A stretch of 64,000 nucleotides of DNA from Gnetum montanum (lineage: Eukaryota; Plantae; Gnetophyta): assembly GCA_015680685.1 (NCBI GenBank), contig MNCI01003167.1, positions 169,536 through 233,535 on the forward strand, read 5' to 3'. The position numbers were made by a program, and so were the translations under genes. This document shows positions 4,441-40,416 of the stretch, one piece after another. The stretch's first letter is position 1; every line of letters starts with the position of its first letter. Below the pieces are notes generated by a model. It made no database searches and was not told the DNA's origin. It saw nothing but the letters and a program-made list of their open reading frames with translations.

Positions 4441-4599
4441 GAATAGCGAAAAGGATGAGAGTCCATTGTCTAATTAATTTTTTGATGCACTCCTTTTTGC
4501 TGGTGGTGTTATTCTCAAAATTCCAAAGAAACAAACTAGTACAAGTACATCCTTTCGTATTTACTTACATAGGAGATGCCACTGGAGTGGAACCATAAG

Positions 4600-7412: not shown

Positions 7413-7425
7413 TACCCCCATGACT
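7413..7425 (-). promoter_or_regulatory. Polypurine tract of element C
   Basis: Minus-strand AGTCATGGGGGTA directly abuts the TGATGAG start of the 3' LTR. Confidence 0.8.
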
Positions 7426-12662: not shown

Positions 12663-12784
12663 TTTATTGGTCTACTATTCACCATTATATATGTTCTTAT
12701 TTAACTAATTAACCCAAAGGCTCATTAAGGCTCACAACTATGTGAAAGATTTCCTAATGTTCTAATTGGTGTACAAACACTTAG

Positions 12785-12802
12785 TCCCCAACAACAGTGC
12801 CA
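12785..12802 (-). promoter_or_regulatory. Primer-binding site (tRNA-Asp type) of element C
   Basis: Minus-strand TGGCACTGTTGTTGGGGA lies 1 nt from the LTR. It differs only by transitions from the Athila PBS TGGCGCCGTTGCCGGGGA. Confidence 0.85.
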
Positions 12803-12803
12803 A

Positions 12804-13764: not shown

Positions 13765-14240
13765 TTGTTTAAGGGCATAATCCTACTATGGGGAAGATCC
13801 ACTTGCATAATCTTTGTCCTAGATAGTTAAATTTCCTATCCCTTCATCATTTTTCTTTCAAATCCATTATTTTCTACCATAAAAATCTAGTTTTTACACT
13901 CGAAATTCAAACTCCATCTAAATATCCTTTTCCAAAGAGATTTAGAGACCTCTCTAATGATTTTTCCTTACTCTAGTCTTTTTTTTCTTTCTTTGGACTT
14001 CAATTTCATTGAAAACCTTTTTTTCCATCTTCATTGACGCATAGTTAAAATACTATAAATATGCATCGACCCTTAGCCAAATTTTCACATTTACATTCCA
14101 AATGCTAAGGAAGTTTTGAATATTTATAAGCCTATATCACCTTCTAAGTGCGATAACTTGCTAACCACTTGTCCAATTTATTCCATTATTTGATCCTTAA
14201 GCTATAGGATATGAGCTTTATGTCATGGGGGCCATAAACT

Positions 14241-15809
14241 TGTTGCAACTAAAAACCTCAGTTGCTGAAAAAATCAAAGATCCGTAGTGTAGTAGTTCAT
14301 CAACCCGCAAATCCCTAGGGCCTTTGTGGAAAAAATGGGATACAAGATGCCTAACTGCTCTGGTAGACCAACCAAGGACTTACAAAATTCAAAGTGTGGT
14401 GAACAAAATGCAAAACCGATAGTAGATCTAAATAATGCACAGATAATAAACAAATGTATTTTGTACAAAAAATTCAAAACTTAAAAATTTATTGAAAGGA
14501 AAAGTAAAGAATAAGTTAGAGAAAATGTATACAAATGGTACCTAAATTAGTAGCCAAAGGTGGATTCACTGGTACAAGATTTTAAAGCCCATTGAAGCCA
14601 ATGCAATCCACTTCATGATCCAGGTGCTAAGCCACTCTTGATACTTTTGAACCTTTCTCAACTACAACCTCAAATCTGCAATGTTGGTTGTGGTGGGGGT
14701 TGAGAAATGTGAAAAAATATAAGCTATCCAAATGCTCTATGTTGAGAGTTGGGAATGCCAAGGATGTAGTGTGGAGCTTGAAAATTTACAAACCCCAAAG
14801 GTTATTATGAGGCGACAAGGTCACAGGGTGTCTATGCTGGGTTCAAGAGAATACAAGTCTGGAAACTTATTAAAAAACTCTTGAGTACCTAAGAATGCCA
14901 AAGTGTAGAACTATGAATAATTTTGTGTGCAAAATTTTGTGTATGATAATGGTCTTGAATTGCAAAAAGGTATGGAATCTTGAAAAAATTGCTAAACTAC
15001 CAAAGTGTGTGTAACTATCCAAGTGTTGAATCTGTAAATGGTGTTTGAGGTTGGACTATTTATAGGTTCTTTGGGACATGAATAGAGCTGAAAATGGCTA
15101 TAAATTATCTATAAAATGGGTCCAAATTGGCTGCCAAATTCAGGTGAGAGTGGTGCCTAGATTTGAGGGGTTACTATAAATAGTAAGTTCTTCCCCAATG
15201 GCCTTTCCATTTACTATAAATAGTAACCAGGGCACACCTTCCATGCTAGAGATGAATTGTCCATGTTGAGCTCTCCACCATGCTTATTGAGGTAGTTGGT
15301 CAACATTGTAGGGCATGGAGTGTTGAAATCTAATTACTGTGGCTTCCATGTTGGGGGATGAAATTTTCAATGTTAGAGGTGAAGACGGACACTAGGAAGA
15401 AACTTCCACATTGAGGGGGGGAGGTTTCCAGGCTGTGCATGTGGTCTTTATACTAAAGAAAAAAGGTTTCGAAAACCCCAATCCTTTCACACTAGGGGTA
15501 GGTGAGATTTACCCCTCTGCATGTGTTTCTTGCAAAGAAAAGTGTATAGCCCCCATAAAACCCATCAAATTGCCATTTTTGGCATTTCGAAAGGCATTTT
15601 TCATCTTTCCAATCCCAAATATAAATACTAGATGAATTGTTTCACTTGGGGTATGAGGCTTTACTTATAAATAATTTTAGCCCCAAAAGTGTAAAGTATG
15701 TGAAATTTCCCACTATGAACTACATTTTTTAGTTTTACCTTGGGTTTCATGGGAATGAAAGCTATGTGATGAAGATTGGCCTTAACATGAAAATTTTCAT
15801 GGTGTTTCA
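14241..15809 (-). repeat. 3' LTR of element B
   Basis: Collinear with 31426-33000 from TGTTGCAACTAAAAA to GGTGTTTCA, roughly 80% identical by eye. Confidence 0.93.
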
Positions 15810-16069
15810 ATGGTTCCTATTTGTTGGTGTTTAGATGATTGACTTGAGAGGCACCAAAAAAGAATACAAAACACCATTGTATATTATAACAATATAATGC
15901 ATACAAGCCACATGAGAATCAGGCTATCTAGGTCACCAAAGTTGTTAGTTTAAGGCTATGGTAGGCCATGGTACCAATTTAAGGCTCTAGCAAGCCATGT
16001 TACCAGTTTAAGGTTGTAGCAGACTATTGAAAGTAGGTTTGCTTATTAGCAATTATTGGCTACATGTAG

Positions 16070-17200
16070 TATGGCTTTAGATAGGAATGATTAACTAGAC
16101 TGATCATCTTATTTTCATCCATGTCAACTATTTTGAATTCTCCACTTCCATAGGATCTAATGACAAGGAAGGACCCTTCCTAATTGGCTGAGAATTTGTT
16201 TACATGCTCGCAGAAACTTTGAAGACCAGGTTACCATCCTTGATCTTGCGCATGTTCATATGGTGATGCTACCACTTCTGCCTCTCTTGATAGTGCTCAA
16301 TGTAAGAAAGTGATTTCATATACTACTCCTCCATCAAATCCAAGGCTATTGTCCATAATTCCTTATTCTTCTCATCGTTGATGAAGTTAGTCAAGGTTAT
16401 GTCAAGTGAGGGCATCTACAATTCAAAAGGTAAAACAACTTTAGATCTATAAACTAGGCTATAAGTGGTTATACTAGTTTCCATGCAATAGGTTGTTTTG
16501 TATGCCCATAGTTCATGAACAAGACACTCATGCCACTTGTGTTTGTTGTTGTTGAGGATCTTTTTAAGTAAGTTGATGATGGCTTTGTTGCTTACTTCTG
16601 CTTCTTCATTGGCTTGAGCGTAATAGGGTGATGAGAAAGAATGCTTAATACCTAGGTTGTGACAATATTCTTTCATTTCATGGCCACTAAATTGTCATCC
16701 ATTGTCTATAAATATGATCATGGGTATGCCAAAATTGGCTATGATGTTATCTAAGATGAATTTGTAGACTTGTTTAGATGTAGTCTTCCATAGGGAAATA
16801 GCCTCAATCTAGTTTGTAAAGTATTTGGTTGTCGTGATGATGAAGCTATGCCCTATAGAAAACTTAGGTGTTATGGGTCCAATGATATCCAACCCCCACT
16901 ATTAAAATGACCATGTTATTTAAATGGTATGAAATTTAGTTGGTGATACATGTATAAGGTCACTATATCATTGGCATGTGTCACACCACTTAACCTTTGT
17001 AGGTAGTCATTTTCCATATGGGGCTAATAGTAGCCTATCCATCTAATTTTAGTGGCCATAGCTCTTGATCCTATATGTCCTCCATAAACACCTTCATGAA
17101 CCTTCTCTAAGACTATTCTAGCATCAATTTTACCTAAGAATATTAGGATTTTTCCATCCTAGGATCATCAACATAATGTGTTATCACCTATGATAACATA
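16070..17200 (-). pseudogene. Integrase of element B, disrupted
   Basis: WGLDIIGPI, TKYFTN, FSSPYYAQAN, ELWAYKTT and FSAN*EGSF (GPY/F-like) motifs; ORF 16416-16676. Confidence 0.92.
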
Positions 17201-17429
17201 GTGCTTTAATTGCTTGCATATAGCATCCTTCTATGTAGTGGTTAGGCCTTGTGGAAATTATCCATGCATAAGGAAAAACTTGATATTATCATAGAACTCC
17301 TTGTGAGGAGTAGTATGAATTACAACCACAAAGGTATCCTCAATGTTTTGTGTGATAGGAGTAGCATAGTCTATGGTTAAGGTGGGCAACTTGCTAAACA
17401 CATCTAGTGTCACACTAAGGGCTAATGTT

Positions 17430-17780
17430 ACAATTGAATTGGCTATGGAATTTTCATTTTGAGGTATGTGTTGGATATTAAGGTCTATTAATTATTGTAA
17501 CAATTTCTTCCCTTGTAAGTGTGTGGCTTTGCATGCATAGACTTTGATTACTTGGTTAACCATGAGTTGTGAATCACCTTTGATCATTAAATGTCTAATT
17601 TCTAGGTTACATGAAACCATCATCCCTCTAATCAAACCATTATACTCTGCTATGTTGTTGGTATATAAAAATCCAAAATGATAGGCAAAGGGTTAGATCT
17701 CACTAGATGGGAATGTTACGATGGTAGTGGCACTAGCCCCATGGGTAGTTGAAGCTCCATCAAAGTGTATGACTACCTCA
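17430..17780 (-). pseudogene. Additional archaeal-type RNase H (aRH) of element B
   Basis: IHFDGAS...GASA, TNNIAEYNGLIRG, KGDSQLMVNQV and HIPQNENSIANS motifs, located between RH and INT. Confidence 0.88.
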
Positions 17781-17859
17781 TAACCCTTGGGTACTTGGGT
17801 AACTACATTAATATGTTCATTAAGAAATTTATGATCTATGGTTGCTTGGTCATTAATTG

Positions 17860-19473
17860 GTAAAACTATGAGCTATATGGCTATACCTTGATCTTTTGTT
17901 GAGGATTGAAAGACATAATGGAGAACAAACTCCATGATTATGGCTTTCCATTGGGCTATATAGCTACTTTCATAGATGTTGGTCATTATGGCTCTGGGTA
18001 TGTTGTCCTTGCAAATCATGTTGACTTGGCTTCTAAAGAGGTAGTGTCTCCACTTCCTCAATGAGAAGACTAGTGTTGGAAAACTAATGCATGGCTAATG
18101 TAGTATACATGCATTTTTGCTCCATCATCACATTTTTGATAGAGTAGAAAAGTAATGGATGTATTAAAGATGGCAAGATAAATATAAAATGGTTTACCCT
18201 CTTATGGGGGATAGACTGTTGGTTGTTGTATCAATTCCTACTTAAGGTTTTCAAAGGCCTCTTGGCATTGAGCTATCCACTCATAATGAACTCCTTTCTT
18301 AAGTAAGTGTTGCATGGGCTGTAACGTATCTATAAACCTATGAATAAACTATAATTTTCATTATAATCCCTAAAGCTCTTTAAGGTTGGTAGGTTCTGCT
18401 AATCTGGATATGGCCTTAACCTTATCAAAATCAACATGTATCCCTACTTCAAAGACTACAAAGCTAAGCATCTTACCAATCTTGACACCAAAGACACACT
18501 TCTTAGGATTGAGCCTAGGCTTGTACTTGAGGCATGATTTAAGCACAAGGTCTAGGCCATTAGCATGGTCATTGACTATTTTAGACTTAATGGCTATGTC
18601 ATATATGTAATCATTAAGTAAACCTAGCATGTAATCACTAAAGATATAGGTCATGACTCTTTGGTATGTTGCCCTAACATTCCTAAGGCTAAAGAAAATG
18701 ATGGTCTAATAAAAGGTACCTCATGGAATCATAAAAGTTATGCTATGTTGGTGCTCTAGGTTGATCCTAATTTGGTTATATCTTGAGAATCCATCCATAA
18801 AGGACAACAAGGCATGTTTGGTTTTAGTATCGATAAGTTGATCAACACTAGACAAAGGGAAGTCATCCTTGATAATTGCTTTATTTAGGTCTTGAAAATC
18901 AATGTCAATATGGATTCTCCCATTTTTCTTAGGGACTATTGCTATGTTGGATACCCATTCTGTGTAGTCAATAGTCCTAATGAAATGAGCTTAGTAATGC
19001 TTTGATATTTCATCATGAACTACCAAGGCCAAATTAGGTCTAATTTTGTGCAGTTTTTTCTTAATTGGTCTAATGCTAGGATCTAGTATGATGTTGTACT
19101 AGAATAAACATGGATTTAGACTTGACATATCTTCATATGGCCAAGCAAAGGCCTTAATGTTTCTTTGTAAAACCTTGGTATTGTCTTAAGCATATTGAGG
19201 TTCTAGTGAGGAACTTAATTTAAGGGTTTTCTCCATACTATTGTGTGTTGTGACAAGAACTTCAACTAGAGAGTCTTCAATTATATCACCTACCTCTAAG
19301 TCAATGGTTTTTCCTATGTTTTTAGGCCATTCTAGAGGTTTCTCTATTGAGGCTATGTGGTCTATAAGACCCTTAAGCTGAAGATCTAGGCAATTAGGGT
19401 CAATACTCTATTCAACATCACTATGAGGTCCATGTAGATACAAATGTAAATTGATCTGCTTTCAAGTATTCAT
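17860..19473 (-). pseudogene. pol: Reverse transcriptase and RNase H of element B, disrupted
   Basis: AFAWPYEDM, WVSNIAIVPKKNG, LSFMDGFSRYNQI, LNPKKCVFGV and KWRHYLF motifs; in-frame ATG at 19473. Confidence 0.92.
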
Positions 19474-21504
19474 ACTTTGATCCTGCATGTCAACCAAAGT
19501 CATATTAAGTGGAACATGGGTAAAAGTGAATAAATAATGCTAAAATGCTATAAAATTATGCAAATACATACAAATCTAAGGCAAACAAGGTCATCCAAGG
19601 TCATCAATAGGGTGACAACAAGCAAACAAAGTGCAATAAGGGCTAAATAAAGCTCAAACCAAGGTTAAACAAAGTAAAGTATAAGGATCATGACTACAAA
19701 TGATCAATAAAGGCCATGATGTTGCTAGTCTTAGTCTTTATTAGTCCTTGATATCATTTTAGACTCTTGGTTGACTATGATGCTAGTTTTAGGCCTTAGC
19801 TGGCCATGGTCACATGATGTTAAATGGTAGTTAGAGAAGGTCAAACCCCATTATTTGATACCATTCAAAGGCCAAAAAATGGTAAATAAAGCTATAATAA
19901 GTTAAATAAAGAACACATAAGACTGTATAAAGGCCATAAAATGTCAATAATGCAACACAGGTCGAAAAGCAAGCCAAAACACTATATAATAAGGCAAAAC
20001 TAAAGTAAAATAGGCTATATATGGTAAAATTTGGCTAATATAGGTAAAAAATGATTACGTTTTGCTAGTTTTAGGCCTTAGTAGGATATGTTTTAAGGCT
20101 ATAAGGATATTAGGTGAGTTTAAACATTAATTAAGGCTATTTCTGAGCTATTTGGACCCAAAAATCAAGTGTTTCAAGGCTTCCACAATGGGCTTAGTGT
20201 GGAAACAAGGATCCTTAGTGTAGAAACTAAGTAAAATAGATTTTGGGGTTCGTAGAGGTCCAAAATTAAGGTTGTAAGCCCTTCCCATAGTAGTGTAAGA
20301 TCATATCCATCAAAATTGGGCATTCTGAAGGTCTGTAAAGGCTAAAAAGTAGGTAATGAAGACTTCCCCCCTTGTTTCTACATTGGATAGCATGGAAGAG
20401 AGGGGTTCTAGCATGGAAAAACAAGATTCAAGTCAAAATGGGATCAAACATGGTCAAAAAGGTAGGCATGATCTAGCTCTGGAGGTTGTGTGTCCTTTGG
20501 ATTTGTTTTGAGGTTGTTTGAGGCAATTTTGTGTGTCAAAACATGTCAAAATGGATTTCCTCTCTTTTTCCATGCTAAGCATAGTATCCTCAACACAGAA
20601 AAATAGGGGGATAATTGATTTTGTAAATTAAAAGTAATTTAGAAACACTTTGACCAAGTTTATAGGATGCTAAAGCTGTAGACTTTAATTCTATAAGTTT
20701 ATGGCTAATTTTGAGCATGTTTGAAAGCTATTTAAGGGTACTTAAGGTCTTCCCCTTGTTTCTAGGCTAGGGAAGTTACCAACATAGAAGATTGGGGGAA
20801 ATGAGTTTTGGAGGTTGAAATAAGGTCAAACAAGCAAAATATTAAGGTTATGAAGTCCTAGGCTACTCCAGTGCGGCTATTTGGCTTCTGGGAGTGTCAA
20901 CTTATCACCAGAATTAGAAAAGTAGTTTTTCCCCTTTGTTTCCATGCTAGGGAAGTTACTCCAGCATGGAAGAAGTAAGAATCCCATATCTAGGCTAAGT
21001 TATATCATAATCAAATATGCATGTTACCTTCTAGAGTTACCAAGGCCAAGGGCTATGTCTCCTTGTCAAAATTTGATAGTTCTGAGTACTCCCAAGTGGG
21101 TTTTGAGCTTCTCTCCTTTTTTCTAGATCAGGACAAGGGAGATTAATATGGAAAACTAGGGGGAACCATATTTTGGCCATTTGGGATTAGTTTTGTAAGG
21201 TTTGAGGGCTCCAATGGTTGCTTCCTAAGTTCTAGAATGGATGTAAGGTTGTTTGACCTCATTTTGAGGTATTTAGGAGCTCCAAACAAGTTTCCCTCTG
21301 AGTTTCCATGCTATGAAGCATGGAGGAAGTGATCACCAACATGGAAGAATTCTAAATGCTAGATCTTAAATAATTTTTACCTGAATCAACCATGCATGTT
21401 AGCCTCTAAGGCTATCAAGGTCAAGGGCTAGGGTTTGGAGTTAAGACCAATCAGTTTGAAAGTCTTTGGAACACAACAAAATTTGGGTCTCAACATCTCC
21501 ACTG

Positions 21505-22010
21505 AAAATTTGGCTAAGTGTCAAAAAAATGGCACTTTGCCCAAATTTTTCTAAGTGTTAAGTGTAGTCAACTCCAACTGCCAGATTTGCAAAATTTTTC
21601 TAAGTGTTAAAATGATGGCACTTTCTACAAATTTGTCTAAATGTCAAAACTTGGAAAATTTTTCTAAGTGTTGGTGGTACGCTCCCTAGCGTAGCTAGTG
21701 TAGCATGCATCAAGGCTTGTTTTGCAAAATTTTCTGTGTCAACAATGGTTGCAAGAAAATTTTTCTAAGTGTTCTGCCATACATTCACTTTACCTACCAT
21801 GCTATAGAGCATAGCCAACATAACACAATTTTTAGTGGCTATTTTTGCCTAAGTGTTAAGCAAGAAGCTATCAAGCTAGCTCAACATGGAAGAGGCATTT
21901 GATAGATTTTCTAAGTCCTAAAGCCACCCCTCCTACTACACTCTAGAGAATAGCTAGTGTAACAAGAACAAGGATTACAATCTTTAGCAGATTCTTCTAA
22001 GTGTCCATGC
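21505..22010. repeat. Cluster of AAAATTTTTCTAAGTGT-type direct repeats
   Basis: About eight copies of a CTAAGT(G) core, for example at 21514, 21551, 21600, 21664, 21764, 21849, 21911 and 21997. Confidence 0.75.
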
Positions 22011-22278
22011 TATGTCCTATCCCTACGGGGTGTCTCATGTCCTTCACGTAACACAAGATAAGCATAGTAGCTAGGATCCCATGTCCCACACATAACATGG
22101 AATGAGCATAGTAGCTAGCATCCCATGTCCCACACATAACACGGGACAAGAGTAGCAACTAGAGTTAGAAATTTTTTTAAACTTTTTCTAGTCACCTCTA
22201 GACCTAGAAAATTTTCTAAATTTTTCTTGTGGTCCCACCTACCACACTACCACATGGCACACGATCCACATTTTGAGC

Positions 22279-22300
22279 TAACCCTAGCCCTATAAATACC
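22279..22300 (+). promoter_or_regulatory. Putative TATA box with telo-box-like motif inside the element B spacer
   Basis: TAACCCTAGCCCTATAAATACC; motif match only. Confidence 0.5.
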
Positions 22301-24630
22301 CCTGCACCATAATGTTTCAAGGGGGTTGGCTTCCATTTTTTATCGGTTGGTAGTTGGCACTTTCATTTTGTCATTTGGCATCTTAGCACTTAACTCCATG
22401 GGCAAAAAAGACCCAAAGCACACCACACTAGCAAAGAGATAGAGTTACACATCATGGTCCACTATGGCCCCATTGTAGCCTTGTAGAACACCACATGGTA
22501 CACCATAGCGACTAACCTGATAGGCACAGTTCATCATGGTGAGTGCCAGACTACATGGCCCAACACCACCGAGACTATGACTATGCTTTCATTATGCTTG
22601 TTGTACACTGTGTACCTTCTAAGACCATTTGGAGTTAGCTATGCTCCCATTTGGTCTGGTGTTCCATTTCTCTCTCCTATTTCTAGCATTTTATTACATT
22701 TTTCTTACATAGTTTAGTGCTTTTTCACACATCATCATGTTGAAATACGCTTGTGTGGTAGTATTTGTGGGTTGAAACTCTCGTTTTGGTTGAAACCCTT
22801 AGCTACACTTGCCTCCATTCTATGGCTATTCTCTACACTTAGCACTATGAAGCACCACCTTGACACTTAGCACCATTTTGCGTTATTTGCATTTGCATTT
22901 TGGCTAACCACACCATCCACTGATTGCATCCACCACCCTGGATGCAATTGGTAGAATTCCTATTTAATTGACATGATTATTTAGGGTTCTCTATCTCTAT
23001 TTCTAGCAAGGCCCTTGCATGGAGGTGGGGTTAACACTACACATCTGTTGACACCTCAGTGATTCCAATTATCAATGTTTTCAATTGTTACAATCTTCTA
23101 GGTGGTTTTTGAGCTTTACCCTCTTTTTTTCATGATGAGGATGCTATGCCTATCATGGAAAACTAGAGGAAAATATATTTTTACCTTTTTGCATCATTTT
23201 TGGCCATGCATGTAGCACTTCGAGGTTGATAATGATGATTATCAATGCTTGGTATTAACATTTTTTTGTTTTGAAGGTTGCCAAGTGGTTTTTGAGCTTT
23301 TCTACATTTTTGCACATTTGGGCTTCCATGATGATCATGGAAAATCTATGAGAAATATTTTTTGGCTTCTAAGGATTAATTTAAATAGGTCCAAAGGTCT
23401 TAAGGTGTTTAGATGAGGTTCTAGGACACTTATAGGGTTTTTTCCTGTTCATTCGAGGTCTCTAAAGTCTATTTTGGAGTCGTCTAAAAGTTTCCCCCTT
23501 TTTTCCATGGTGGGACATGTGGAAAAATTAAGGGACCTTGATTTTTATATTTCTCCATCATTTTGGGCTATGCATGTAGGCTTCTATGGTTGCTAGCGTC
23601 GATTGCTAATACCTAATGTCCAAACATGGTTGTTTCAAGGGTCTTTTGAGTAGTTTTTAAGCTTCCTACATTTTTTCCACACTAGGGATTCTGTGTCTAG
23701 GGGTCAATGGGCATTAAGAAATAATTACTAGGTAATTAATTTAGGTTATTTTTGGCTTTCCCCCATCTATCCACACTAAGGATGAGAGGCTCAACATGAA
23801 AGAAGCCTTCCTCAGCATGGAAAACACCAAATCCCCAATTTTGACCAGTTTTGACTAGGTTTGGTGGGGTTTTGAGGCTACCAGAGATGCTTGGAGGGGT
23901 TATAGGTTACGTGGGGTCCATTTTAGGGTCAAACATGGGCTAGATGGGTTTTGTAAGGTAATAATTGGTGTTACAACCCATCTTCCATGTTGGGCACTTT
24001 TGCCTAGCATGGAAACCCATGGTATCTACCTTCATTCATGTCTCACCCACTTTTGGGAAATCGAGGTTGAAAAAGGCAAGTTTGGCTTACTAAAAATAGT
24101 AAACTATTTGTAATTCCAATGATTTTTGGGAATATGAGGCATGTTTCCCTACTGAGCATGCTACCCTTAGTGTGGATGCATGGGATATAAGGTTGCCATA
24201 AAGTTTGAAGTGTCAAATTAGAAAAAAGCTCAACATTGATGTAAACTTTGGTCAAAATAGAAGGTGAAGGGTGGGGCCTATAATCAAAAAAATTAAAATT
24301 TTGAATAGTAAAGTTTTTTTCACCCAAAACCAATGTGAAATAGACTTTTCCCCCTTTACACTTTAATGCACTTGAAGTTATGGTGCACCGAATTAGTCGC
24401 TGGGGTTTCAAGATGTGCATTTAGGTTTTAGATGAGTTTTAGATGTCAAATTTTGAAATTTTTAATCATAAATATCATTCTACATCACCAATTCATTATA
24501 GGACAGCGATGGTAGATATTTTGTTTTAGAGGATACCAATATTTGGCATGGAAGCCTTCCATATCACCTACAGCTACCGTAGAACTCCTATCTTTTCTTA
24601 ATCTTCATCATCCTCAACGTTGAGCTTGCC

Positions 24631-27011
24631 ATGTTACCCAAGAAGTGAAGGGAAAATAGTAAAAATCATATGATCCAAAGGATGGATGAGTGTTCTAGGA
24701 AGTTGTTAGAGGTTCCTAGGCCTATCTCCATCTAGGCCTCATCTATCACTACTACAAGGTAGGCAGTTCAACCTATTTTTGCCTTTATTTTCTATAGTTT
24801 TTCTAGTTTTTTTTTGTTTCCCATGTGTTAAAGCCATTTTTTTCTAGATCTACTCTAGTGTAGGGATTAAAATGAAATTATAATGAAATCCAAACTCCTA
24901 TTTTCATAGCTTCCATGCAAATCTATAGTCATTTCATTGGTTTAGCTTTTGTAGATTTGATTTTGAAAATAAGGCTTATTGTTTCATGCTTTTTCCCAAA
25001 ATTTTTGGGTGTGGCCATTTTTTTAGATCTAGGCCTTATGATTTGTTAAAATTAACTTTTAAGAAAATTTTATAGCATTATTTTGGTGTAAATGTTAATT
25101 GGTTTTAGTGGTTTTGGCTACTTCGACTGTTTCCATGGCTATATGAAATCTAGGTTTTGAGGTTTTGACATGAAAAAAGCAAGCAATGTTGTGTATCTTT
25201 TCTTGGGAGAATGGCTACAAATTTTTGAAATTGATGGTCATGAGTTCTTATCCATTCATTTAGTATTTCTAAAATATATGGTCTTGTTTAATTTGAATTC
25301 ATTAGGATGAAGTTATGGTTGTTTCTCTAACATTGCATAGTTAGGTTTCTCATGTCATTTTTTGTAATTTCATGGAAGCTTGTGAATTTTTTATAAGATA
25401 ATAGAAACTTTTTTGTCTATTTTATTGTTATTTATGTCTTGGAATTTGTTTTTTCTTTCCAATGGAGGTCGAATCACTCTTATTGGTCTTCAAATGAATT
25501 TTCTACAAATTTTTTACTAAGCATGTGTAATAAGGATGTTTGTGCCATTTTTTGATTATTGTCCAAATTGACAAATTAACACTACATAAATGAAAAACAC
25601 TTTAAATTTATTCTAAGCATGGATATGTAGGGCTCGGTTTAAGCTTTCAAATGGTGATGGAATAACTCTATTTGGAGCTCAAATGAATTTTTGAAAAGGT
25701 TTTTACCAACACTGCATGAAGAGAGGTTAATTGTCATGGCTATGATTTTGGATAAACTTTGGTTATATTTTATGTAGATATGGTTATACATTTTTATTTA
25801 TAATGATCATGGCTATAATTTTCATAATTTTAGAATTCTTTTCATGGTGGAATCATTGAAATTCAAGAATAAACAAATTTTTAATGAATTTTTTGGCTAT
25901 GGCTATGTGAATAATGTAAAATTATGGTCATAGCACACTGCCCATTTGGAAATGGAAGTGGTTGATATGTATAACTTATGCTTTTCTTTTTTCAACATGT
26001 AAACCTAATGCTTAATTTTTTTTTAAGAAAATTAAAATCTTTTTCTACCTTTACCAAGCATTTACTATGGCTACATGGTTTTTAATAAGTTTATGATGCT
26101 TTTCCTAAATTTGTGCATAGTTTAGATTTTTTTCCCAAATTTATCCATCATTGGCATAATTTAGATGTTTTTTCTAAACTTATGCTTGTTTTTTTTCTAA
26201 ATTTGTACATATTTTAGATGTTTTTTTTTCCAAATTTATGCATGATTTGCATAATTTAGATGTTTTTATAAACATGTTTTCTTTTTTTCTAAATTTATGC
26301 ATAGCTTAGATGTTTTTTTTTAAATTTATGCATTCTTTGCATAATTTAAATGTTTGTTCTAAACTTATGCATAACTTAGAATAAGGTTTAATTCTAGCTA
26401 TAATGCTTTAGATATGATATTATTGTTATGGTAATAATGCTTTTATGTAATTTTCTTAAGTAATTTAGATAAACACCTAAGAGCATTTTATAGAGACTAA
26501 TTTAACCTTTGACTTAGGATGTTTTTTCTAAATTTGATAAGACATTCCAATTGGTCATAATATAAGGTTATGCAAGGTTGTAATAGTTTTTTCTTATAAA
26601 TTCCTTAAGGTAATTTAGATAAATACTTGAGAGCTTTACAGAGGATAATTTTTCCTCTGATTAGATGTTTTTTCTAAATTTGTTAATAAATTCCAATTAG
26701 ACACAATGTGTTTTTTTTTTTTTTGGCTTCATGTAGTGTTTTTTTTAGGCCTGTCCTCATCATCATAGATTTGATGGGTATCCTGTGCTACATTGGTCAT
26801 CCCAAGACCAATTCCCCATAGGTTTGATGCATTTAATGTTTTAATTTTTATTTTAAGATCATGGTTTTGGCTATGGGTTACTAACTAGCTATATGTTGTT
26901 GCATTTCAGGCCTCAAAAGACATTAGTAGCCTAAGCAATCAAGATGTAAATGATCCACCATTTCCTCCTCTAAATTCCACTCAGTAGCCTCCATCAAGTC
27001 AGCTTGTTTGA
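24631..27011 (+). pseudogene. Putative three-exon antisense mini-gene inside element B (exons 24631-24758, 26749-26821, 26910-27011)
   Basis: GCCATG start; splice signals AAG|GTAGGC, TTTTTTTTAG|G, TAG|GTTTGA, TACTAAC branch point and TTTCAG|G; T-rich introns. The joined frame is 100 codons with four TAG/TGA stops. Confidence 0.5.
26080..26380. repeat. ~30-bp AT-rich minisatellite (TTTAGATGTTTTTTCTAAATTTATGCATA-like)
   Basis: Multiple degenerate tandem units are visible; related units occur at about 26515 and 26660. Confidence 0.7.
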
Positions 27012-27244
27012 CTATCTATTTTTATTTTCATGTTGATAGCTATGATTAGCCAAGACTATGATATAGATGGTTGTTATTCTTTGATATTTTTTTCACATAG
27101 TATGACCATGGTTATTTATGGATATGGATACTTTAAATTTAAATATTTGGTTATGACTTTTGGCTATATATCATGTTGTAGTAAATGTTGTAAAAGTTGA
27201 GAATAACTATGTTGACTAAAAAGAACAAGTATAATGATAAAGAT

Positions 27245-27550
27245 GCTCACCAGTTTTAGGCCATAGCAGCTGTAGGTTACATTGTCTTGCCAGTTTAAGG
27301 CCATGATGGACCATAATGCTAGTTTAACGTCTTAGTAGATGGAAATGTCAATTTAAGGTTGTAGAAGATCATGATGTCAATTTAAAGCCTTAGGGGGTCA
27401 TGATGCATTGAGGTTATTTTTGCCAATTTAGGGCCATAATAGGCCATGTTGCATTGTTTTGGTAGACGTTGCTACTTTAAGGTCATGGTAGGCTGTCATG
27501 CCATTTTAAGCTCTTAGTAGACCATAATGCCAATTTAATGTCTTAACAAA
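27245..27550. repeat. ~30-bp tandem repeats (GCCAGTTTAAGGCCATGGTAGGCCATGAT-like)
   Basis: About 8-9 degenerate units; the same family occurs at 15940-16025 and 19710-20100. Confidence 0.7.
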
Positions 27551-27749
27551 TGGGCTATGAAAAAAACTTATATTTATAAAGAATTTTTTATGTTTCTAAC
27601 ATAAGTAAAAATAAAGAAGGTTGTAGCAAATAGGTAAAAATGCAAATAAAATTAGGCTACATGCATAAAAAGTAAAATAAAAAATGCATAAAAAGATATA
27701 ATAAACTACAAAAAGAAAGTAAGGCTACATGGCTATTGGTGCATTTGGT

Positions 27750-30700
27750 CATAGGAGCATGGGAAGGTTTAAGTAAAAATCACTTGCATAGATTCTTCCT
27801 AATCTTTGCAAGATTAGGGAGTGAGTAAGGCCTACTATACACAAGCTTATATTTTCCATCTACTTCACTTAAGATGTTAAAAGGAATTCATTCTATAATG
27901 CATCCTATTGCTTATCATTATCATCATAGGCTTTCTTGGGTTTTTGCTCTTCATGCCTAGGGGCTTCTTCTTGAAGCACCATTTTGGAACCTTAATCTAT
28001 GTCTATGTTGTTGATAGCTATAGGAACTGTGTTATCACCATGAATGATGATTTTCCCTCCCTCGTAAGGAAGGAGAATTCCTTGATGGATGGGAAAGGAC
28101 ATGACTTGTAATTAATCCAACTAAGGTCTTCCTAGGATCAGGTTAAATCTTTGTGTCTCCTCCTCCACCAAGAAGTTGGCAGTTGTGGGGAATTTCTCCC
28201 CATCTAGAAAATCCAAGGAGATAGGTTCCTTGATGAAAAATCTTAATCCATTAAAGGACTTAAGAGCTATGATAGTTGTAGGTTGTATTTGCTTAGTTAA
28301 GCCCAAGCATTCAATAATGGTGCATGCAATGACATTGGTTGTGGCTCCATCATTAGCATGCACATGATGTATTTTAAATTTTCCTATGCATACATTTATG
28401 AATAAAGGGGTTGTATTTGCTTCACCATTTTGGGGATTAACCTTAACTTCTCTATCATGAGTTACAAGGTGCATTGACTTTGCCTCCTTTGGTGAGGGAG
28501 GAATCATCATTGCATGGATGGATTTCTTATTAATAGGGATATACTCACTAATGAGGATGGAGGTCAACATTTTGACTATCACCTCATGATGTATGGAAAA
28601 AGTGATGATTAGGTCATATAAGCTTAGAGTTATGTTGTTTTGCTTCAGGAATTGCCTAACTTGGTTCATTGAACTAAGGAAGTTTTTATCATTGGTCATG
28701 GGCTTGTTACCCTTGCTATGATCTACTTCCTTCATGCACCCCAAAATGCAAGCTTTAACTTTAGGCTATGGTTGTTGAGACTCTTCCTTTTTTTTTTGGT
28801 TGTAGATTTTTTGATCCTCCTATGGATTGGTGGTTGAAGGGGTTGGGGTAGAGGAGGTCATGGGTATAGCTGAAATGAGAGTGGTCTTTGGTGGGTCCAT
28901 TTACTTTCATTCCTTCATCTACTTATCTTCCTTCTTATTAGGCTTTTTCTTATACTTCTTCCTTTGTTTGGATGAATTTTTTGGTGGTTAGTCATTAGTT
29001 GTGAGGAAGAGGTAGTAGCATTAGCCACCACAGGGGGTCATTGTGTAGTTGTTTAGGCTATGGTTGATTGCATTATGTTCACATGGAAGACCTTGAGGAC
29101 AAAAGCTTCCTTGGAAGACATTCATGATGGTACTCTTATGATGAAGGGAAATCTTAAGCTATGGGAGGTGAAGAAGTCCTTTCATTAAAGAAGGATACTT
29201 GAATCATGAATGGTTCTGTTGTAGGTCTTTGATTGTCATTAATGTTAAATGCTGAAATAACATAGGAGCTATCCTTAGCATTCAATGGATCTTTGTAGAC
29301 TTGCATTGACAATTTTTATGTTCAAACTGGATTGGAAGCATCTAAGACTAGCTCTTCCTTATCTATCATCCTTCAATGCAAGGCAGAAGTTTGTGTCGTG
29401 ATCAAGTAGTTGATGATAACTGTAGAAGTAGTCTATTTGAACTATCTAGATAATTAGGGATCATCCTTCATTGCCCAAATGGGATCCTTGGCTATTTTGC
29501 ATAGCCTCTCATGTTTCTTTCAAGTGGCCTTAGTCATTTGTTTGTGTTTTATGCAACCACTTTTTAATAGTTTGTCTAACAACTCTAATTGTTTCATAGG
29601 TAAGGTAGTGTGTTCGGACCTATCCTTTCTTTTGAATTTAGGTCTGGTTATTGTTGATGTAGTGGCCTTAGAGGTTGATGATTGGTTATTGCAGTTATTA
29701 GTAAGGGCCTTGGGTGGATTGGCCTTTGGCCCTTGGTTTATTTTCTTTGTTTCTTTAGTCACAATTGCTATGGCCATGTTGTTTTGTTTGATCTTTTCTT
29801 TGTCTCTCTATGTATGTTGATTTTTATATGTTATGTAGGTTGAATCATGACTAGCCTCCACCTCATCCTCTATATTTTTACTTTGTGAGAACGCATGGCT
29901 AAGAAACCACAAATCAAGGTAGTAGAGCTTGGACTTGATAAATTCATTCACTACTCCCTTAAATATGGCTAACAAGTGGGCTTCAACTATAGGCTCTGGC
30001 ATTTCATTCAGTAGTTCATTCCATCACTAGATGAACTTTTGTATTGGTTCTAAGTACCCCTACATAACCTTCATGAGTTGGCCAAGTATGGTGTTGGGCT
30101 TCAAGTTATACTTGAAGTGGTTTCCAAACTAGGAAAACAAGTCCACCAAAAAGGATATGGATCCCCTAGGTAATGCATGATACCAATCTAGTGCTTTTCC
30201 AGTTAAAGACATAGGAAAAATACTCATGATGGTTTGAGGCCATGGCTACAAGAGTAAGCATTTAGATCAAAAAGTAATAAGGTGAGCATTAGAATCACCT
30301 TGTCCACTATATTTGCTAAATTGGGGAATAGAGACACTAGGAGGAAGTGTCAAGGGTGGGACTATAGGACTTATGGGATCATCCTAGTGGAAGTCCATAA
30401 TCTTGATAGTTTGTGAAGTAGAGGCTTCAAGCCTTCTCAACTCCTTCGTTAGGTCCTAGATCATTTAGAAGGCTTGATCTACATCTTATGTTAGCCCTAT
30501 TGGTTGTGGGGTTTGTACATAGGGATATGGAATCTGTTGTGAGGTTTGTGGCCTTGCTATGGATTTCATGAAAGAAGGAAGAGGTTGCGTTATGATTGTG
30601 GCTTGTGGGCCAAACAAAGAAAAGGATGTTTCTACTAGTACCTAAGGTACAAATGGGACAAATGGGATGTGTGACCCCTAAGGTGCTTGGGGTCTCATGC

Positions 30701-31355
30701 TAGGCCTTGCATAGGTAGATGGTTGTATCGATTGAGGAATAGATGGATCATGGATCATAGTTTGTGCCATCAATTAAGGTTGATGCATGTCTATGATTGG
30801 TGTGGGGTTAGCTATACTAGGGTAGAAAGGAGTGGAAGATGGTGGCACCATGCCCTTGGAGAAAACAAAAGTGTTATAGGAGGAAGCTATGACCTTGAAA
30901 GACATTTGTTAGAATAGTTCTCCCAAGATGTTTTAAGGCTTAGATTCTATCGTAAATTCATTCTCCTCTTCTAGTTGTTCCTTAGAGCTATGTTTTTTAT
31001 CTTCTTCCTCCATCTCAATCAATTGGGCTAGTATATCAACATAGATATTAGATAGAGATATTTGGTCAAAATGGGAAGGGATGTACTCCTTACCATTATG
31101 GTGGATAAGTTTGAACTCTCTTTTCGATTTTTCTTCCAAATGTGAAATCAACATAACAACCTATATTTTGGTGCAAATGAAGTTATATTAGTCTTCATTT
31201 ATGATTGCAAAATCAGGATTCTTCAATTTGATCCTTAAATATTTCCTACATTCAATGATAGTAGGGTCTTTGAGGTCATATACCCTCATGGCTTGTTGGC
31301 TAGGACCTTCACCAATGAAGGTGAGAGGCAACTTGGTAGATTGCTAGAAAGACAT
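27750..31355 (-). pseudogene. gag: gag-protease of element B, disrupted
   Basis: IPQFSKYSGQGDSNAHL, FPMSLTGKALDWY, Tat-type knuckle YSYHQLLDHDTNFC, and protease ORF 28121-28744 (VHANDGATTNVI...FNLILGRP). Plausible ATG at 31355. Confidence 0.88.
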
Positions 31356-31425
31356 GGCTATAATGTTGAGAATGGCTTAAAATAAGGCTATAAATGATTA
31401 CATAAAGGAAATTCCCACTAAAAAT

Positions 31426-33000
31426 TGTTGCAACTAAAAACCTTAGTTGCTAGAAAAATCAAAAATCCTTACTGTAGTAGTTCCTCACCTCATGAATACC
31501 TAGGACCTTTGTGGAATAAATGGGATTTGGGATGCCTTTGCTAGTCCAACAAATCAACTTGGGACTTATGGAATGCAAAGTGTGGTGAACGAAATGCAAA
31601 AATGATAGTAGATGTGAATAATTCATAGATAATAAAAAATCTATTTTGTATAAAAAATCCAGAACTTAAAACTTTATTGAGAGAAAAAATAAACAATAAG
31701 TTAGAGAGAATGTGTACAAATGGAGTTTGAATGAGCAGCCAAAGGAGGGTTCACTAGTGTAGGAGTTTAAAGCCCATTGAAGCTAATGCAATCTGGTCCA
31801 TAAACTCGGTGCTAAGACACTATTGATGCTTTTGAACCTTCTTCAACTACAATCTTAGATCTATAGTGTTGGCTATAATGGAAGTTGAGAAGTGTGAAAA
31901 AATATAAGCTTCCCAAATGCTCTATGTTGGAAGTTGGAAATCCCAGAAGTGTAGTGTGGAGCTTAAAAATTCACAAATTATGAGGCCATAAGGTCATAGC
32001 GTGTCTACATTGGGTTCAAGAGAATACAAGTGTTGAAACTTGTAAAAAAGCTCTTTAGTGCTTAAGAATACCCAAGTGTAGAACTATGAACAATTTTTTA
32101 TGCAAAAGTGTGTGTATCCCAATGTCTTAGATTGCAAAAAAGTATGGAATCTTGAGAAAATTGCTGAACTACCAAACTGTGTGTAACTTTCCAAGTGTTG
32201 AATCTATAAAAGGTGTTTGAGGTTGGCTTTTATAGGTTCTTTGAGCCATGAATGGGGTTGAAAAATGGCTATGATTTGGCTGCAAAATGGCTGTAAATTG
32301 GCTGCCAAATTTAGGTGAGATGGGTGCTGAAATTTGAGGGGTTATTATACATAATAAGTGCTTCCCCCCATGGCCATTCCATTTACCATAAATAGTAACC
32401 AAGGCACACTTTCCATGTTGGAGATGAATCTTCCACGCTAAGTTCTCCACCATGCTTGCTGAAGTGGTTGGTTAATGTTGAACTACATGAAGTGTTGGAA
32501 ACTAGCTATTGTGGCTTCCACGCTAGGGGATGTAATTTTCAACACTTGGGATGAAGAATCCATGCTAGGGGGAAACTTCCATGCTAAGCGGGGAAGGTTT
32601 CTAGGCTATGCATGTGGTATCCATGATAAAGGATGAAATTTTCCAAAATCCCCATCCTTCCACACTAAATATAGGTGATATTTACACCTACATGTGTTTC
32701 CACCATAGAAAAGAATATACTTCATATAAATCCCATTAAATTTCCTTTTTTGGCATTCCAAAAGGTGTTTTTTACCTCCCCAAGTACAACTATAGATACT
32801 AAGTAACTTTTTCCACTTATGGAATGAGGCTTTGACCACTTATGAGGTATTTGTTTTAGCCTCAAAAGTATAAAGTATGTGAGATTGCCCACTATGGATT
32901 ACAATTTTCACATTTACAATGAAGTTTTGCCTCAAGTTTCATGGGGTGAAAGCTATGTGATGGAGATTGACTATTACATGCAAATTTTTGTGGTGTTTCA
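31426..33000 (-). repeat. 5' LTR of element B
   Basis: Partner of 14241-15809, upstream of gag on the minus strand. No PBS is clearly recognisable. Confidence 0.93.
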
Positions 33001-33349
33001 AAACCTATGGTTTAGCATGGAAAATGTTTTTAAAATTTTTCTAACTCCCCAAGGTTTAACTAATAAAATATTATTAAAATCATCAATCTACAGTAAGTTA
33101 AACCTCATCAAAAAACTCAGGTAGATAAATGGATAAAAAATAAGAAAATAATCCATTTGCCATGATCAAAACTAGCTTAAGTGTAACTTGCCCAAATGAG
33201 AAAAGGTATTAAAGGCATTAATTATTAGACATAAAACACTGATCTTGGGTTATGTTTGTGATCATAGATGGCACCAAAGAGACCATAGGGCGAGGGAGAA
33301 GTAGTTAAGAGGAGGAAGGGGCCAATAGTCACTAATAGCCTGAGGAAGG

Positions 33350-36050
33350 TGAAGCAAAAACACATGAAATGGTACCTCTTCAAGAGAATCCTAAAGTGAA
33401 ATTTATTTTTCAGCATTACATAATGAAGATAGGCTAGTCGAGGCAAGATGAGGTGCCAAGGCCTAGGTCAAATCTAAAGGTCACATTGATTTAGGCTTTC
33501 CTTGAGTGAATCCATTCTAAGGTGGCCTAGAGTTTGGTTCTTTAGAAACTTAACTTTGGCACCTTCTTGGACTTGGTAGTAGAGGAGGTCAAGACATAAC
33601 TACAAGGGTCCTCTATGTGGCCCATCCTCACTTCTAGTAGGGAGTGGTACATGGGGGAAACCTATCTTCTTTGGAATAATTAAAAAGTAGATACTATCAT
33701 CAAAATCAAATACATTAGCATCTCTTATTNGAAAGTAGATACTATCATCAAAATCAAATACATTAGCATCTCTTATTCCATTGAGGTCATTGCAAAGGTC
33801 CTTGGACTACTTGATATTGGGGTAACATTGATAGAGGTCCCCACACAAGTAGGTCTAGAAGTAAAGAAGAAGTGGGTTGAACGATGCTATGGGGTAAGTT
33901 GTAGGAAGTATGACATAGTAACTAAGATGAAAAGATTCTATTTCAAATTGTGGCCTACCACCTAAATCCAACAATAAGGCCTAGAAAAGTCACTACTTTT
34001 TCCACTTTTGTGGGCACCACTATAAGTGGTAAATTTCCTATCAACCTCCCTTAGCACATCTTCTTAGAGATTGAGAAGCATTTTAAAGAAAATGAGCAAG
34101 GAAGAAATTCCCCTTGCCATTCCTGATCAAAAAGCTTTGTAGAAGTGAAGGCATAGATCATTATGCTAATGATACCATACGTCATTTTTATACCACCTCA
34201 TAGTAGGAGATGATGAAGGATAAAGCACCTGCTAAGCTACTTGAAGTGAAGTGGCCACCACCACCACCTACCAAAGAGACAATACCAGAGGCTTGTGCCA
34301 CTATTAGGTGCATGAGAAAACTATCTAGATAACTAATCTAGAAATAGTAAGGCAAGGTAGATGGTTTGAAACCATTGGTTTACCAACCAATGTTGAGCCA
34401 TCTTAATGAAGTCACCAAAATAATAAGCTAGCTAAAAGGAGCTACTCCACTATTTTCCACCCAAAGAATGCAGGAGCCTATGAGATAAAAGTAGAGCACT
34501 TGAGAGGGCATAGTGTCCATTCCTAGGCCACAAGAGTTCCCAAATTTTTTTTGGAACACCAATATTTTCTCGATGCACTTGGAGGAGGGCAAAGGGACTA
34601 TTGTCCTAGTGGTGTAGCACCATAGGAAGGAAACAACAATGGCGGTATTGGCCAAAGCACTAAACATTCCTACAGTAGCTATGCTAGACATTAGTGCACT
34701 CAAGGATGTGCATGCTTTTGCAGGAGTAACAAGCAAGAGTCTAAGCATAGCCCATCATGAGGAAGTATTGGATTAACTAGGAAGAACGGGATGATCACTT
34801 TTGGAGATCTTTGATCTTGTGAAGGAAATCATTGTAACCCAATTGGAGTTGCTAGAAATAAATTGCAAGATCATCATAAAAAATTTCCAACTCAAGGAAA
34901 CCACTAACAAGAAGCAATAGTTGGCTATCAAAGTTGCAAAGTTGAGAGCCTGATTAGTTGATACTATCAATCTCAGCCAAGTTGTCACAAGGGCTGAAGC
35001 TTTCCTACAACTTCAAGATCAATTAAAAGAGGTTGAGAATGCCAAAGAGATGATGATCTTTGACATGTCCTTATTAGAACCTCTTTTCACCCACACTAGT
35101 GAGGACTTAGCACAAGTCCACAAGAAAAACCTCACCTTAACTAAATACAATCATCTCTTGTGCAATGTTGAGAAACAAAAAGACTAGATGGTCAAATTTG
35201 TTAGAAAATAGTAAGAGCAACTTGCTAAAGTGAACATGGACTTAAGGAGGTTGGCAGAAAATAGTAGAAATCTATCAATGGAGGAAGTTGAAAATGCCCA
35301 TTGAGGTAGCCACCTGGAAAAATAAGGTCTTAAAGTTAGAACATGTAAAAAATCACTATAGAGACTAGGTAGGACTCCTCAAGGTGGTGAATGAGAAGTA
35401 GATCCAATTGGCTAAGGTGAAAATAAATAATATCCTCCAACATCTCCAACAAAGAGGTGATGTATGCTAGTCAATATTTGATCGTCTAAATGCCTACAAC
35501 AAAGTGAAGATTCACCTAAAGGAGTTGCAGATTAAAGAAATGACAGAGTATATAGAACTTGCCAACCTCCACTAAATAAACTTGGCAATGCTACTAGTAA
35601 GGCCAAGGTTAGTGTTAAAAAAGCAAATGGCCAACTCATACCTCCTCTATGAGGCTAAGTTTAAGCACCATAAGGATACTAAGTAAAAGCTAAAAATAGC
35701 TAATGCTAAGCTTCAAGTTCTCTATAGTTAATTCACTCGCCAATGATTAGTTGCTAAGAACCTAGCCAAGAGGATGAATGACTATCATGAGCTGTAGAAC
35801 CTTATAAAGATGTTTGATGTATAACATAAATAATTCATAGCATGATTTGTCAATGTGAAGAAGATATTTCCTACAATGCACTTTTCATGGAACATCCCTG
35901 TACCAGCCCACATTGGTGAAGCCACATGAACTATGTATGATCCACGAAGTAAGGAGGAGAAGATGAAAGCATTGTTAGATGCCTTTTGTCTTCCATCAGA
36001 AGAAGCTACTATAGTAGGATAGCCATAGCCTTAACATTAGCCACCACCAC
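33350..36050 (+). pseudogene. 3' accessory (env-position) ORF of element A, disrupted; N-terminal domain plus a coiled-coil-like C-terminal half
   Basis: EWYMGETYLLWNN...IKIKYISISYSIEVIAKVLGL, with homologous copies at about 53600 and 55500. It lies between INT and the PPT. Confidence 0.65.
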
Positions 36051-40364: not shown

Positions 40365-40416
40365 AGTAGTATTGAAGCTTGGTATTCTTCTTTGTCATCA
40401 AATTCAAGAGTGAAAA

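What the first reader, a model, noticed from the sequence alone, without database searches (positions are those of the whole stretch)
19473..27750. Tat retrotransposon with pol split in two: a separate RT-RH-aRH-INT reading frame apparently fed by an internal promoter and a 5'-UTR intron
Seen: protease (ending about 27750-28120) and RT (starting about 19470) are ~8.3 kb apart inside one TSD-bounded element, and I could not find a nested LTR pair in the spacer. On the minus strand there is a telo-box AAACCCTAG (21428-21436), a donor CAG|GTAAAA at 21380, a T-rich tract and an acceptor TGCAG|G at 19483. An ATG at 19473 then runs in frame to the RT FAWPYEDM motif with only three decay-type stops. 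Established: Ogre elements have a short intron between PR and RT that is spliced to restore gag-pol. Inference: this family may instead express RT-RH-aRH-INT as its own gene, a bipartite LTR retrotransposon that sets the Gag:Pol ratio transcriptionally.
Basis: partly seen in the sequence, partly recalled or inferred. Interest (0 to 1): 0.8.

Follow-up and report, generated by a model that had tools for sequence, protein, structure and literature searches.

The report
Split Tat retrotransposon, nested solo LTR
An old, broken plant retrotransposon has its protease and reverse-transcriptase genes about 8 kb apart, but the supposed internal promoter region is mostly the end-repeat of another retrotransposon that jumped in later, so the enzymes were more likely made by splicing out a very long intron than from a separate promoter.

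Summary
The split is real. An 18.8-kb Tat element (LTRs 80% alike, TSD 4/5) reads GAG-PR, an 8.3-kb gap, then RT-RH-aRH-INT, and the motifs are at the stated coordinates. The internal-promoter reading loses its main support: 21467-23092 is an antisense solo LTR of a related family (LTR-like ends, TATA box, TSD), and it covers the proposed start site and repeats. The telo-box and donor lie in a ~185/370-bp tandem array; the donor is in 1 of 5 aligned units. The rest of the gap looks like Tat-family DNA: 29-bp repeats shared with the 3' UTR, a motif shared with the LTR, a possible antisense intron-containing gene, and deep cover in DNA runs of four organisms. The RT groups with gymnosperm-type Tat outside Ogre/Retand; 22 of 23 related loci have PR only 0.7-1.4 kb from RT. 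RNA reads showed no 21380-19483 junction, at very low depth. Most likely an Ogre-like split with an unusually long intron holding accessory DNA. Whether sister copies carry the whole gap is not shown.

The parts
31426..33000 (-). 5' LTR, TG...CA, TATA box 814 bp before its end
33001..33005 (-). left target-site copy (GGTTT)
29300..31290 (-). gag, many stops; conserved core 30383-29865
   Evidence: Pfam Retrotrans_gag E 0.013; tblastn to related gags E 5e-15
27780..28900 (-). pre-PR region, protease (core 28690-28020) and frameshifted C-terminal tail ending near 27780
27250..27750 (-). U-rich tract and 29-bp tandem array after gag-PR, homologous to the blocks before RT and after INT
   Evidence: z 12-14 vs shuffles; U-rich part may be compositional
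24502..27010 (+). possible antisense intron-containing gene (candidate exons 24502/24530-24758, 26749-26821, from 26910; 88-nt intron 26822-26909 with TACTAAC); inferred, no homolog found
   Evidence: searches empty
26100..26370 (.). 92-bp AT-rich tandem repeat
23098..24100 (.). upstream half of a ~185/370-bp degenerate tandem array carrying the CTAGCATGGAA motif that also occurs in the LTR
21467..23092 (+). solo LTR of a related Tat family, antisense, 1626 bp, TG...CA, TATA box at 22290, TSD GTCTT (21462-21466) / ATCTT (23093-23097)
20300..21466 (.). downstream half of the same tandem array; holds the telo-box (21428-21436) and the donor-like site (21380)
19483..20100 (-). 29-bp units, U-rich tracts and acceptor TGCAG|G at 19483
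16060..19482 (-). pol exon: phase-0 start D-Q-S-M (ATG 19473), RT core 18936-18463, RH 18279-17927, aRH 17683-17426, INT core 16895-16620; stops and frameshifts throughout
15810..16060 (-). short 3' UTR with 29-bp array (15941-16021); polypurine tract not clear
14241..15809 (-). 3' LTR, TATA box CCTATAAATA near 15065
14236..14240 (-). right target-site copy (AGTTT)

Best explanation
This is a decayed Tat retrotransposon, likely of a gymnosperm host, whose gag-protease and RT-RH-aRH-integrase frames are separated by about 6.6 kb of likely family DNA plus a 1.6-kb solo LTR inserted later, and whose RT was most likely made by splicing an LTR-started RNA across this gap, as in Ogre. Shown: anatomy, solo LTR with TSD, tandem arrays, high-copy cover of every part of the gap, and a short PR-RT distance in relatives from other hosts. 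Inferred: unspliced RNA serves as genome and Gag-PR message; a minority is spliced from a now-decayed donor near the gag-PR end to the 19483 acceptor, in phase 0, giving Gag-PR-Pol. The gap is then a giant intron holding the accessory load (tandem arrays, possibly an antisense gene) that Ogre and Retand usually keep after the integrase.
For: Solo LTR: U5 match is the best outside the element's own LTRs in the window (score 81 vs background 36.7 +/- 6.6, 304 windows). Its start ties for the best non-self match to the LTR's first 19 bases (4 mismatches). TATA-to-end distance is 804 bp vs 814 and 829. Removing it plus one TSD restores an ungapped 375-bp array unit. Family DNA: the 29-bp unit occurs in one orientation after PR, before RT and after INT. 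CTAGCATGGAA (<=1 mismatch) occurs 8 times in 2170 bp of array, 4 times in the LTRs and once in 45.1 kb outside the element. 14 of 14 gap bins have summed contig depth 857-16302 in run X1, against 6214-17535 over the PR end and gag-PR and 6.1 for an identical contig; the profile is alike in three runs of other organisms (depth is not a copy number). No PR-side to RT-side joint among the 15 listed. Ogre-like: the two-ORF layout GAG-PROT:_:RT-RH-INT with partial splicing is described for Ogre (PMC6317226). The acceptor is 111 codons before FAW, against about 100 in Ogre-clade P0149.
Against: No donor scoring over 5.5 lies between 28393 and 27250, where an Ogre-type donor should be, while 21380 scores 8.6 (approximate matrix; about 10% decay per copy could have erased one). 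No splice joint of any kind in RNA (low depth). High depth cannot tell family-wide DNA from a stretch copied in from a related family. 4087 DNA joints were not shown, and depth dips to 14-37 at 27223 just past the post-PR array (similar dips occur in the LTR at 15387 and in INT at 16216). Ogre gaps average 274 bp, so a 6.6-kb intron is outside the described range. No contig spans the gap.
Confidence: 0.4

Rival explanations
1. Most of the family has a short Ogre-type intron of about 1 kb (U-rich tract, 29-bp repeats, acceptor). This copy or its sublineage gained about 7 kb of accessory DNA from a related Tat element, likely by recombination at the 29-bp repeats, and later the solo LTR. The mechanism is then plain Ogre splicing and the long gap is incidental.
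For: The U-rich-plus-29-bp block appears at both ends of the extra 7.2 kb (27789-27465 vs 20060-19718, z 12). Depth falls to 14-37 at 27223 in 4 of 4 runs. The gap already holds one proven later insertion. 4 RNA reads link the two 29-bp blocks (table 5c), though 2 of them go backwards and look like cross-matches.
Against: No such joint among the 15 best-supported DNA joints; the listed skips are array-unit changes inside the gap (19800-20062, 20752-20931, 23200-23570). Equal depth dips occur in LTR and INT. No convincing TIR- or TSD-bounded element was found for the extra DNA (one search gave only short chance-like pairs).
Confidence: 0.25
2. One reading: the tandem array is an internal, possibly bidirectional promoter. 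One way it drives a separate RT-RH-aRH-INT message with a 5'-UTR intron (21380 to 19483) and its own ATG; the other way it drives the antisense gene.
For: The array carries the same motif as the LTR U3 region. Telo core plus donor within 100 nt arose in 6 of 200 simulations (chosen after seeing it). No clear donor at the gag-PR end. ATG 9 nt after the acceptor with A at -3. An accessory gene with its own promoter is reported for Grande (title in a reference list only).
Against: The promoter-like repeats and proposed start site are inside a later solo LTR. No minus-strand CTATAWATA box in the gap. The donor is in 1 of 5 array units. No 21380-19483 joint and no start cluster near 21400-21500 in 4 RNA runs (weak). 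A separate Pol would need its own packaging route (inference).
Confidence: 0.17
3. Foamy-virus-like: an LTR-started RNA is spliced from a donor in the LTR leader straight to the 19483 acceptor, and Pol is translated alone from ATG 19473.
For: Donor-like sites exist near the end of the 5' LTR and start of gag (31488 score 8.4, 31093 score 8.2). ATG right after the acceptor; no donor at the PR end. Precedent in foamy viruses (PMC7828637 passages).
Against: Not reported for plant Ty3/gypsy elements in my searches. The phase-0 acceptor and Met codons fit Ogre-type fusion as well. Not tested in RNA: the lay ended at 31400 and left out the LTR.
Confidence: 0.13

Closest known systems
Ogre (REXdb Tat/Ogre; pea and Medicago Ogre)
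   Same: GAG-PROT separated from RT-RH-aRH-INT by non-coding DNA; aRH between RH and INT; 5-bp TSD; 18.8 kb is inside the 7.7-24.1 kb range (PMC6317226 passages and Additional file 5).
   Different: Gap 8.3 kb (6.6 kb without the solo LTR) against 274 bp on average. RT lies outside the angiosperm Ogre/Retand clade (98/96 support; AU p 0.012 against grouping with core Ogre; long branch). 3' UTR only about 250 bp. Splicing not shown.
Gymnosperm Tat with 'retroviral' structure #1 (clusters Tat J and K of Biryukov and Ustyantsev)
   Same: RT-RH-aRH-INT order, described for conifers II, Ginkgo and gnetophytes (PMC10508981 main text, PMC13468544 passages). Nearest RTs include a Cryptomeria cluster with the same order.
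   Different: In 22 of 23 related loci with a detectable PR the PR-RT distance is 739-1401 bp, and in L001, L002 and L009 both lie in one frame. Here it is 8892 bp on the same anchors. Best RT identity is only about 50%.
Retand (Tat)
   Same: A long accessory region with tandem arrays and antisense ORFs (PMC11963269 abstract and passages).
   Different: In Retand it lies between pol and the 3' LTR (2.9-6.6 kb) and the ORFs mostly carry TRP28. Here the region lies between PR and RT, and no domain was found.
Foamy viruses (Spumaretrovirinae)
   Same: Pol made apart from Gag from a spliced mRNA (PMC7828637 passages): the analogue of the two separate-Pol rivals.
   Different: There Pol includes PR. 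Here PR stays with Gag, and separate expression is untested.

Membership tests
Ty3/gypsy Tat clade | aRH domain in the polyprotein | tested here: met
   RVT_3 E 4e-9 at 17683-17426, between RH and INT
Ty3/gypsy Tat clade | RT phylogeny inside Tat, apart from Athila | tested here: met
   In a 25-row seed-plant clade (100/96), apart from Pinus-type and aRH-before-RT rows; group labels are mine, from host names and domain order, not REXdb
Ogre | aRH between RH and INT | tested here: met
Ogre | [quoted passage not shown] | tested here: met
   other copies bridge both borders
Ogre | RT clusters with angiosperm Ogre | tested here: not met
   Outside the 16-row Ogre/Retand clade (98/96); AU p 0.012; long end branch 1.34 makes the exact place unsure (same side)
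Ogre | separating region is a spliced intron of a few hundred bp | tested here: inconclusive
   Length not met (8.3 kb); no joint in RNA at depth 1-2
Ogre | 5-bp TSD | tested here: met
   GGTTT/AGTTT, one mismatch at the base next to the terminal CA
Ogre | tRNA-Arg primer binding site | not testable with these tools
   The site after the 5' LTR is decayed and no host tRNA set was at hand
Gymnosperm Tat structure #1 (Tat J/K) | RT-RH-aRH-INT order with RT among gymnosperm elements | tested here: inconclusive
   Order met. RT grouped with the Cryptomeria-containing set at 95/84 but sat in an open fork beside it. No named Tat J/K reference sequences were available
Gymnosperm Tat structure #1 (Tat J/K) | PR encoded next to RT in pol | tested here: not met
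   8892 bp vs 739-1401 bp in 22 of 23 related loci
Solo LTR (21467-23092) | TG...CA ends, flanking TSD, homology to an LTR, TATA box, no partner LTR | tested here: met
   no second copy in the window
Element with a separately promoted pol gene | transcript start upstream of RT inside the element and a 21380-19483 joint | tested here: inconclusive
   None seen in 4 RNA runs of 3 samples; 197-1806 reads laid, mostly under 90% alike

The most novel reading that the evidence does not exclude
A high-copy gymnosperm Tat family is a three-gene element: gag-PR from the LTR, and a central tandem-array promoter that fires both ways, into an intron-containing antisense gene and into a stand-alone RT-RH-aRH-INT gene. 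That would be a plant LTR retrotransposon that makes Pol with no Gag fusion.
Probability: 0.15. Interest if true: 0.8.

Novelty: new variant of a known kind. Interest (0 to 1): 0.4.

Why it matters
If the long gap is family-wide, the Ogre-style split of gag-PR from RT also exists in a Tat lineage outside angiosperm Ogre, and the accessory region can sit inside pol instead of after it. That bears on how often the split arose and how long a retained intron a retroelement genome tolerates. Such elements would also be mis-annotated as two fragments. If Pol has its own transcript, it would be a new way for a plant retroelement to set the Gag:Pol ratio and would need a new packaging route. As it stands the mechanism is untested and this copy is dead.

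Tried and rejected
No genome is held for the window, so full-length sister copies could not be collected. Run search: no RNA holder listed. RNA lay (about 26% of three bulk runs, 2% of one other; two runs are one sample): 2 joints listed, both at a poly-T/tandem spot near 26700; no evidence either way on splicing. A sense or antisense coding domain in 21400-24700 (plus frames, Pfam) and in the candidate exons (Pfam, PDB, homolog search, fetched loci): nothing significant. The Atlas look-up of the exon was not run, so language-model look-alikes are untested. My first idea that the TATA box at 22290 was the element's own divergent promoter was dropped once it proved to be inside the solo LTR. 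A nested LTR pair or TIR transposon in the gap: only short chance-like pairs; 24100-27250 shows no match to five LTRs of the window (z <= 2.2). Related loci lacking PR upstream (L023, L026, L032/38, L033, L040) show truncation or other repeats upstream, not this layout (output partly cut); L050-L057 are distant and were not resolved. Earlier scan notes: five look-ups, nothing. The Ogre splicing paper (PMC2596294) is not held; it is cited second-hand. Literature searches showed no description of a kilobase-scale PR-RT gap or an internal pol promoter in Tat. The library lacks most subscription papers, and REXdb Additional file 1 (too large) and the supplement of PMC10508981 were not read; either may bear on this.
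Full report
Anatomy. The element lies on the minus strand between LTRs at 33000-31426 and 15809-14241 (80.5% identical over 1550 columns, K2P 0.23), with a 4-of-5 TSD. It is old and dead: CpG observed/expected is 0.11 and CHG 0.28, and all frames carry stops and shifts. Read with X at stops, it gives GAG (weak Pfam hit; tblastn E 5e-15 to related gags), a Tat-type protease, and after the gap RVT_1, RT_RNaseH, RVT_3 (aRH) and rve.

How special the motifs are. In 200 Markov simulations of the gap, the donor and acceptor words occur at chance rates; the telo core followed by a donor arose in 6 of 200 (pattern chosen after seeing it). With an approximate, recalled splice matrix the 19483 site is the best of 10 listed minus-strand acceptors, 21380 is a good donor (8.6), and no donor over 5.5 lies between 28393 and 27250. 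The exon after the acceptor starts in phase 0 (D-Q-S-M), 111 codons before FAW. Ogre-clade protein P0149 has an F-rich run that I read as a translated intron end, then Met at codons 4 and 7, about 100 residues before FAW. So the ATG does not single out a separate gene.

The plus strand at 21467-23092 is a solo LTR of a related family. Its last 220 bp align with the end of the element's LTR (55%, z 6.3), the best match outside the element's own LTRs among 304 background windows (81 vs 36.7 +/- 6.6). Its start ties for the best non-self match to the LTR's first 19 bases; a longer 300-bp alignment of the 5' parts is not significant. It is 1626 bp (element LTRs about 1570), has CTATAAATA 804 bp before its end (814 and 829 in the element), and is flanked by GTCTT/ATCTT. 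Both TSDs mismatch at the G next to the terminal CA, a CHG site, which fits deamination (inference). Leaving out the solo LTR and one TSD restores an ungapped unit of a ~185/370-bp array that runs from about 20300 to 24100. The repeats at 21500-21800 and the proposed start near 21500 are thus part of a later insertion. The telo-box and donor sit in the array; of 5 aligned units the telo core is in 2 and the donor in 1.

The rest of the gap. A 29-bp unit occurs in one orientation after PR, before RT and after INT. CTAGCATGGAA with up to one mismatch occurs 8 times in the 2170-bp array, 4 times in the LTRs, twice in pol, and once in 45.1 kb outside the element. On the plus strand 24502-27010 has strong splice-like sites, including an 88-nt GT-AG intron with TACTAAC and a stop-free 73-nt exon. 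This suggests an antisense accessory gene, but the main candidate frame has 7 stops in 86 codons (3 and 4 in the other frames) and no homolog was found. It stays a lead.

Other copies. Contigs of four DNA runs from four organisms, laid at 80% likeness, cover every bin. In X1 the 14 gap bins have summed depth 857-16302, the 7 bins from the PR end through gag 6214-17535, and the pol bins 13821-59417; an identical contig has depth 6.1. The highest gap bin is the solo LTR, and AT-rich repeats inflate others. Depth is not a copy number. Contigs about 83% alike bridge 27688-28051 (depth 94.5) and 19306-19600, so other copies share both borders of the split. The 15 listed joints are mostly array-unit skips; none joins the PR side to the RT side; 4087 were not shown. 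One joint, 15913-27287, has only 18-21 letters on one side and fits cross-matching between the homologous 29-bp blocks. Depth dips at 27223, 25432 and 19735, and equally in the LTR (15387) and INT (16216). No piece spans the gap, so family-wide linkage is likely but not shown.

RNA. Four raw-read runs of three samples gave 279, 218, 197 and 1806 reads, mostly under 90% alike. No 21380-19483 joint, no other splice joint and no start cluster near 21400-21500 were listed. Depth near the acceptor was about 1-2 per direction per run, so this is a weak test, and the LTR was outside the laid stretch.

Lineage. No close protein exists in the collections (best about 50%). The nearest RTs include a Cryptomeria cluster that also has RT-RH-aRH. 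The RT grouped with these at 95/84 in a 73-row tree (15 rows left out for short cover). In a 33-row RT-RH tree it sat in an open fork beside them, outside angiosperm Ogre/Retand (98/96), and grouping with core Ogre was rejected (AU p 0.012; long branch). This domain order is already described for gymnosperm Tat (PMC10508981, whole main text; PMC13468544 passages), so it is not new. A gymnosperm host is an inference from the tree and the CHG loss. Of 66 related loci from metagenome contigs I measured 39; PR was found upstream in 23, at 739-1401 bp in 22 and 2862 bp in one (four pairs are near-duplicates). In L001, L002 and L009 PR and RT share one frame. The split and the long gap are therefore derived in this family.

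Mechanism. [quoted passage not shown] Retand keeps arrays and antisense ORFs after pol (PMC11963269 passages). The simplest reading is an Ogre-like split with the accessory region inside a very long intron (0.40), or a short intron that grew in this sublineage (0.25). An internal promoter in the array (0.17) or a foamy-virus-like leader splice (0.13; PMC7828637 passages) remain open, mainly because no donor survives at the gag-PR end.

Verdict. A real and unusual layout, a new variant of Tat organisation. The headline claim of an internally promoted pol gene rests partly on a misread solo LTR and has no direct support. Interest 0.4.

Noticed in passing
window 6456-13765: Younger LTR pair (88%, about 960 bp) with a 5.4-kb interior holding gag-like and PR-like frames on the minus strand and no RT hit: a likely gag-PR-only non-autonomous element, with patchy similarity to the element at 1-6400. 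Two short N runs lie inside it.
   Followed up: partly
window 1-5600: Decayed Athila-like gag-PR-RT-RH-INT on the plus strand.
   Followed up: partly
window 39175-43930: LTR-like pair (76%) around about 2.4 kb with a gag-like fragment (40350-40912) that looks copia-type from recall; no pol seen.
   Followed up: no
window 60900-64000: Another decayed RT and integrase on the minus strand, running off the window end; best RT hit is P0053, which has aRH before RT.
   Followed up: partly
window 27021-27093: Local RNA peak in 4 of 4 runs (11, 11, 13 and 45 reads at 27038; 41 vs 4 by direction in X12), at the 3' end of the candidate antisense gene; could also be a host transcript carrying this fragment.
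   Followed up: no
window 21505-21627: Strand-biased reads in run X12 (up to 52 vs 1) from divergent copies of the solo LTR's repeat region.
   Followed up: no
window 33002-33060: The left flank of the element carries two motifs also seen in the gap (22 bp match to 22169-22190 in the solo LTR; CTAGCATGGAA-like site at 33012); the joined flanks do not align with the solo LTR overall (z 1.7).
   Followed up: partly
L013, L014: Related Tat loci in which gag is followed by RT with no PR detected, probably internal deletions.
   Followed up: no
L050, L052: CpG-rich distant RT loci with no gag or PR detected in 7-10 kb upstream by my queries; not resolved.
   Followed up: no
window 55287-55487 and 33684-33777: 12/45/77-bp tandem array, and an exact 48-bp duplication around a single N that may be an assembly artefact.
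   Followed up: no
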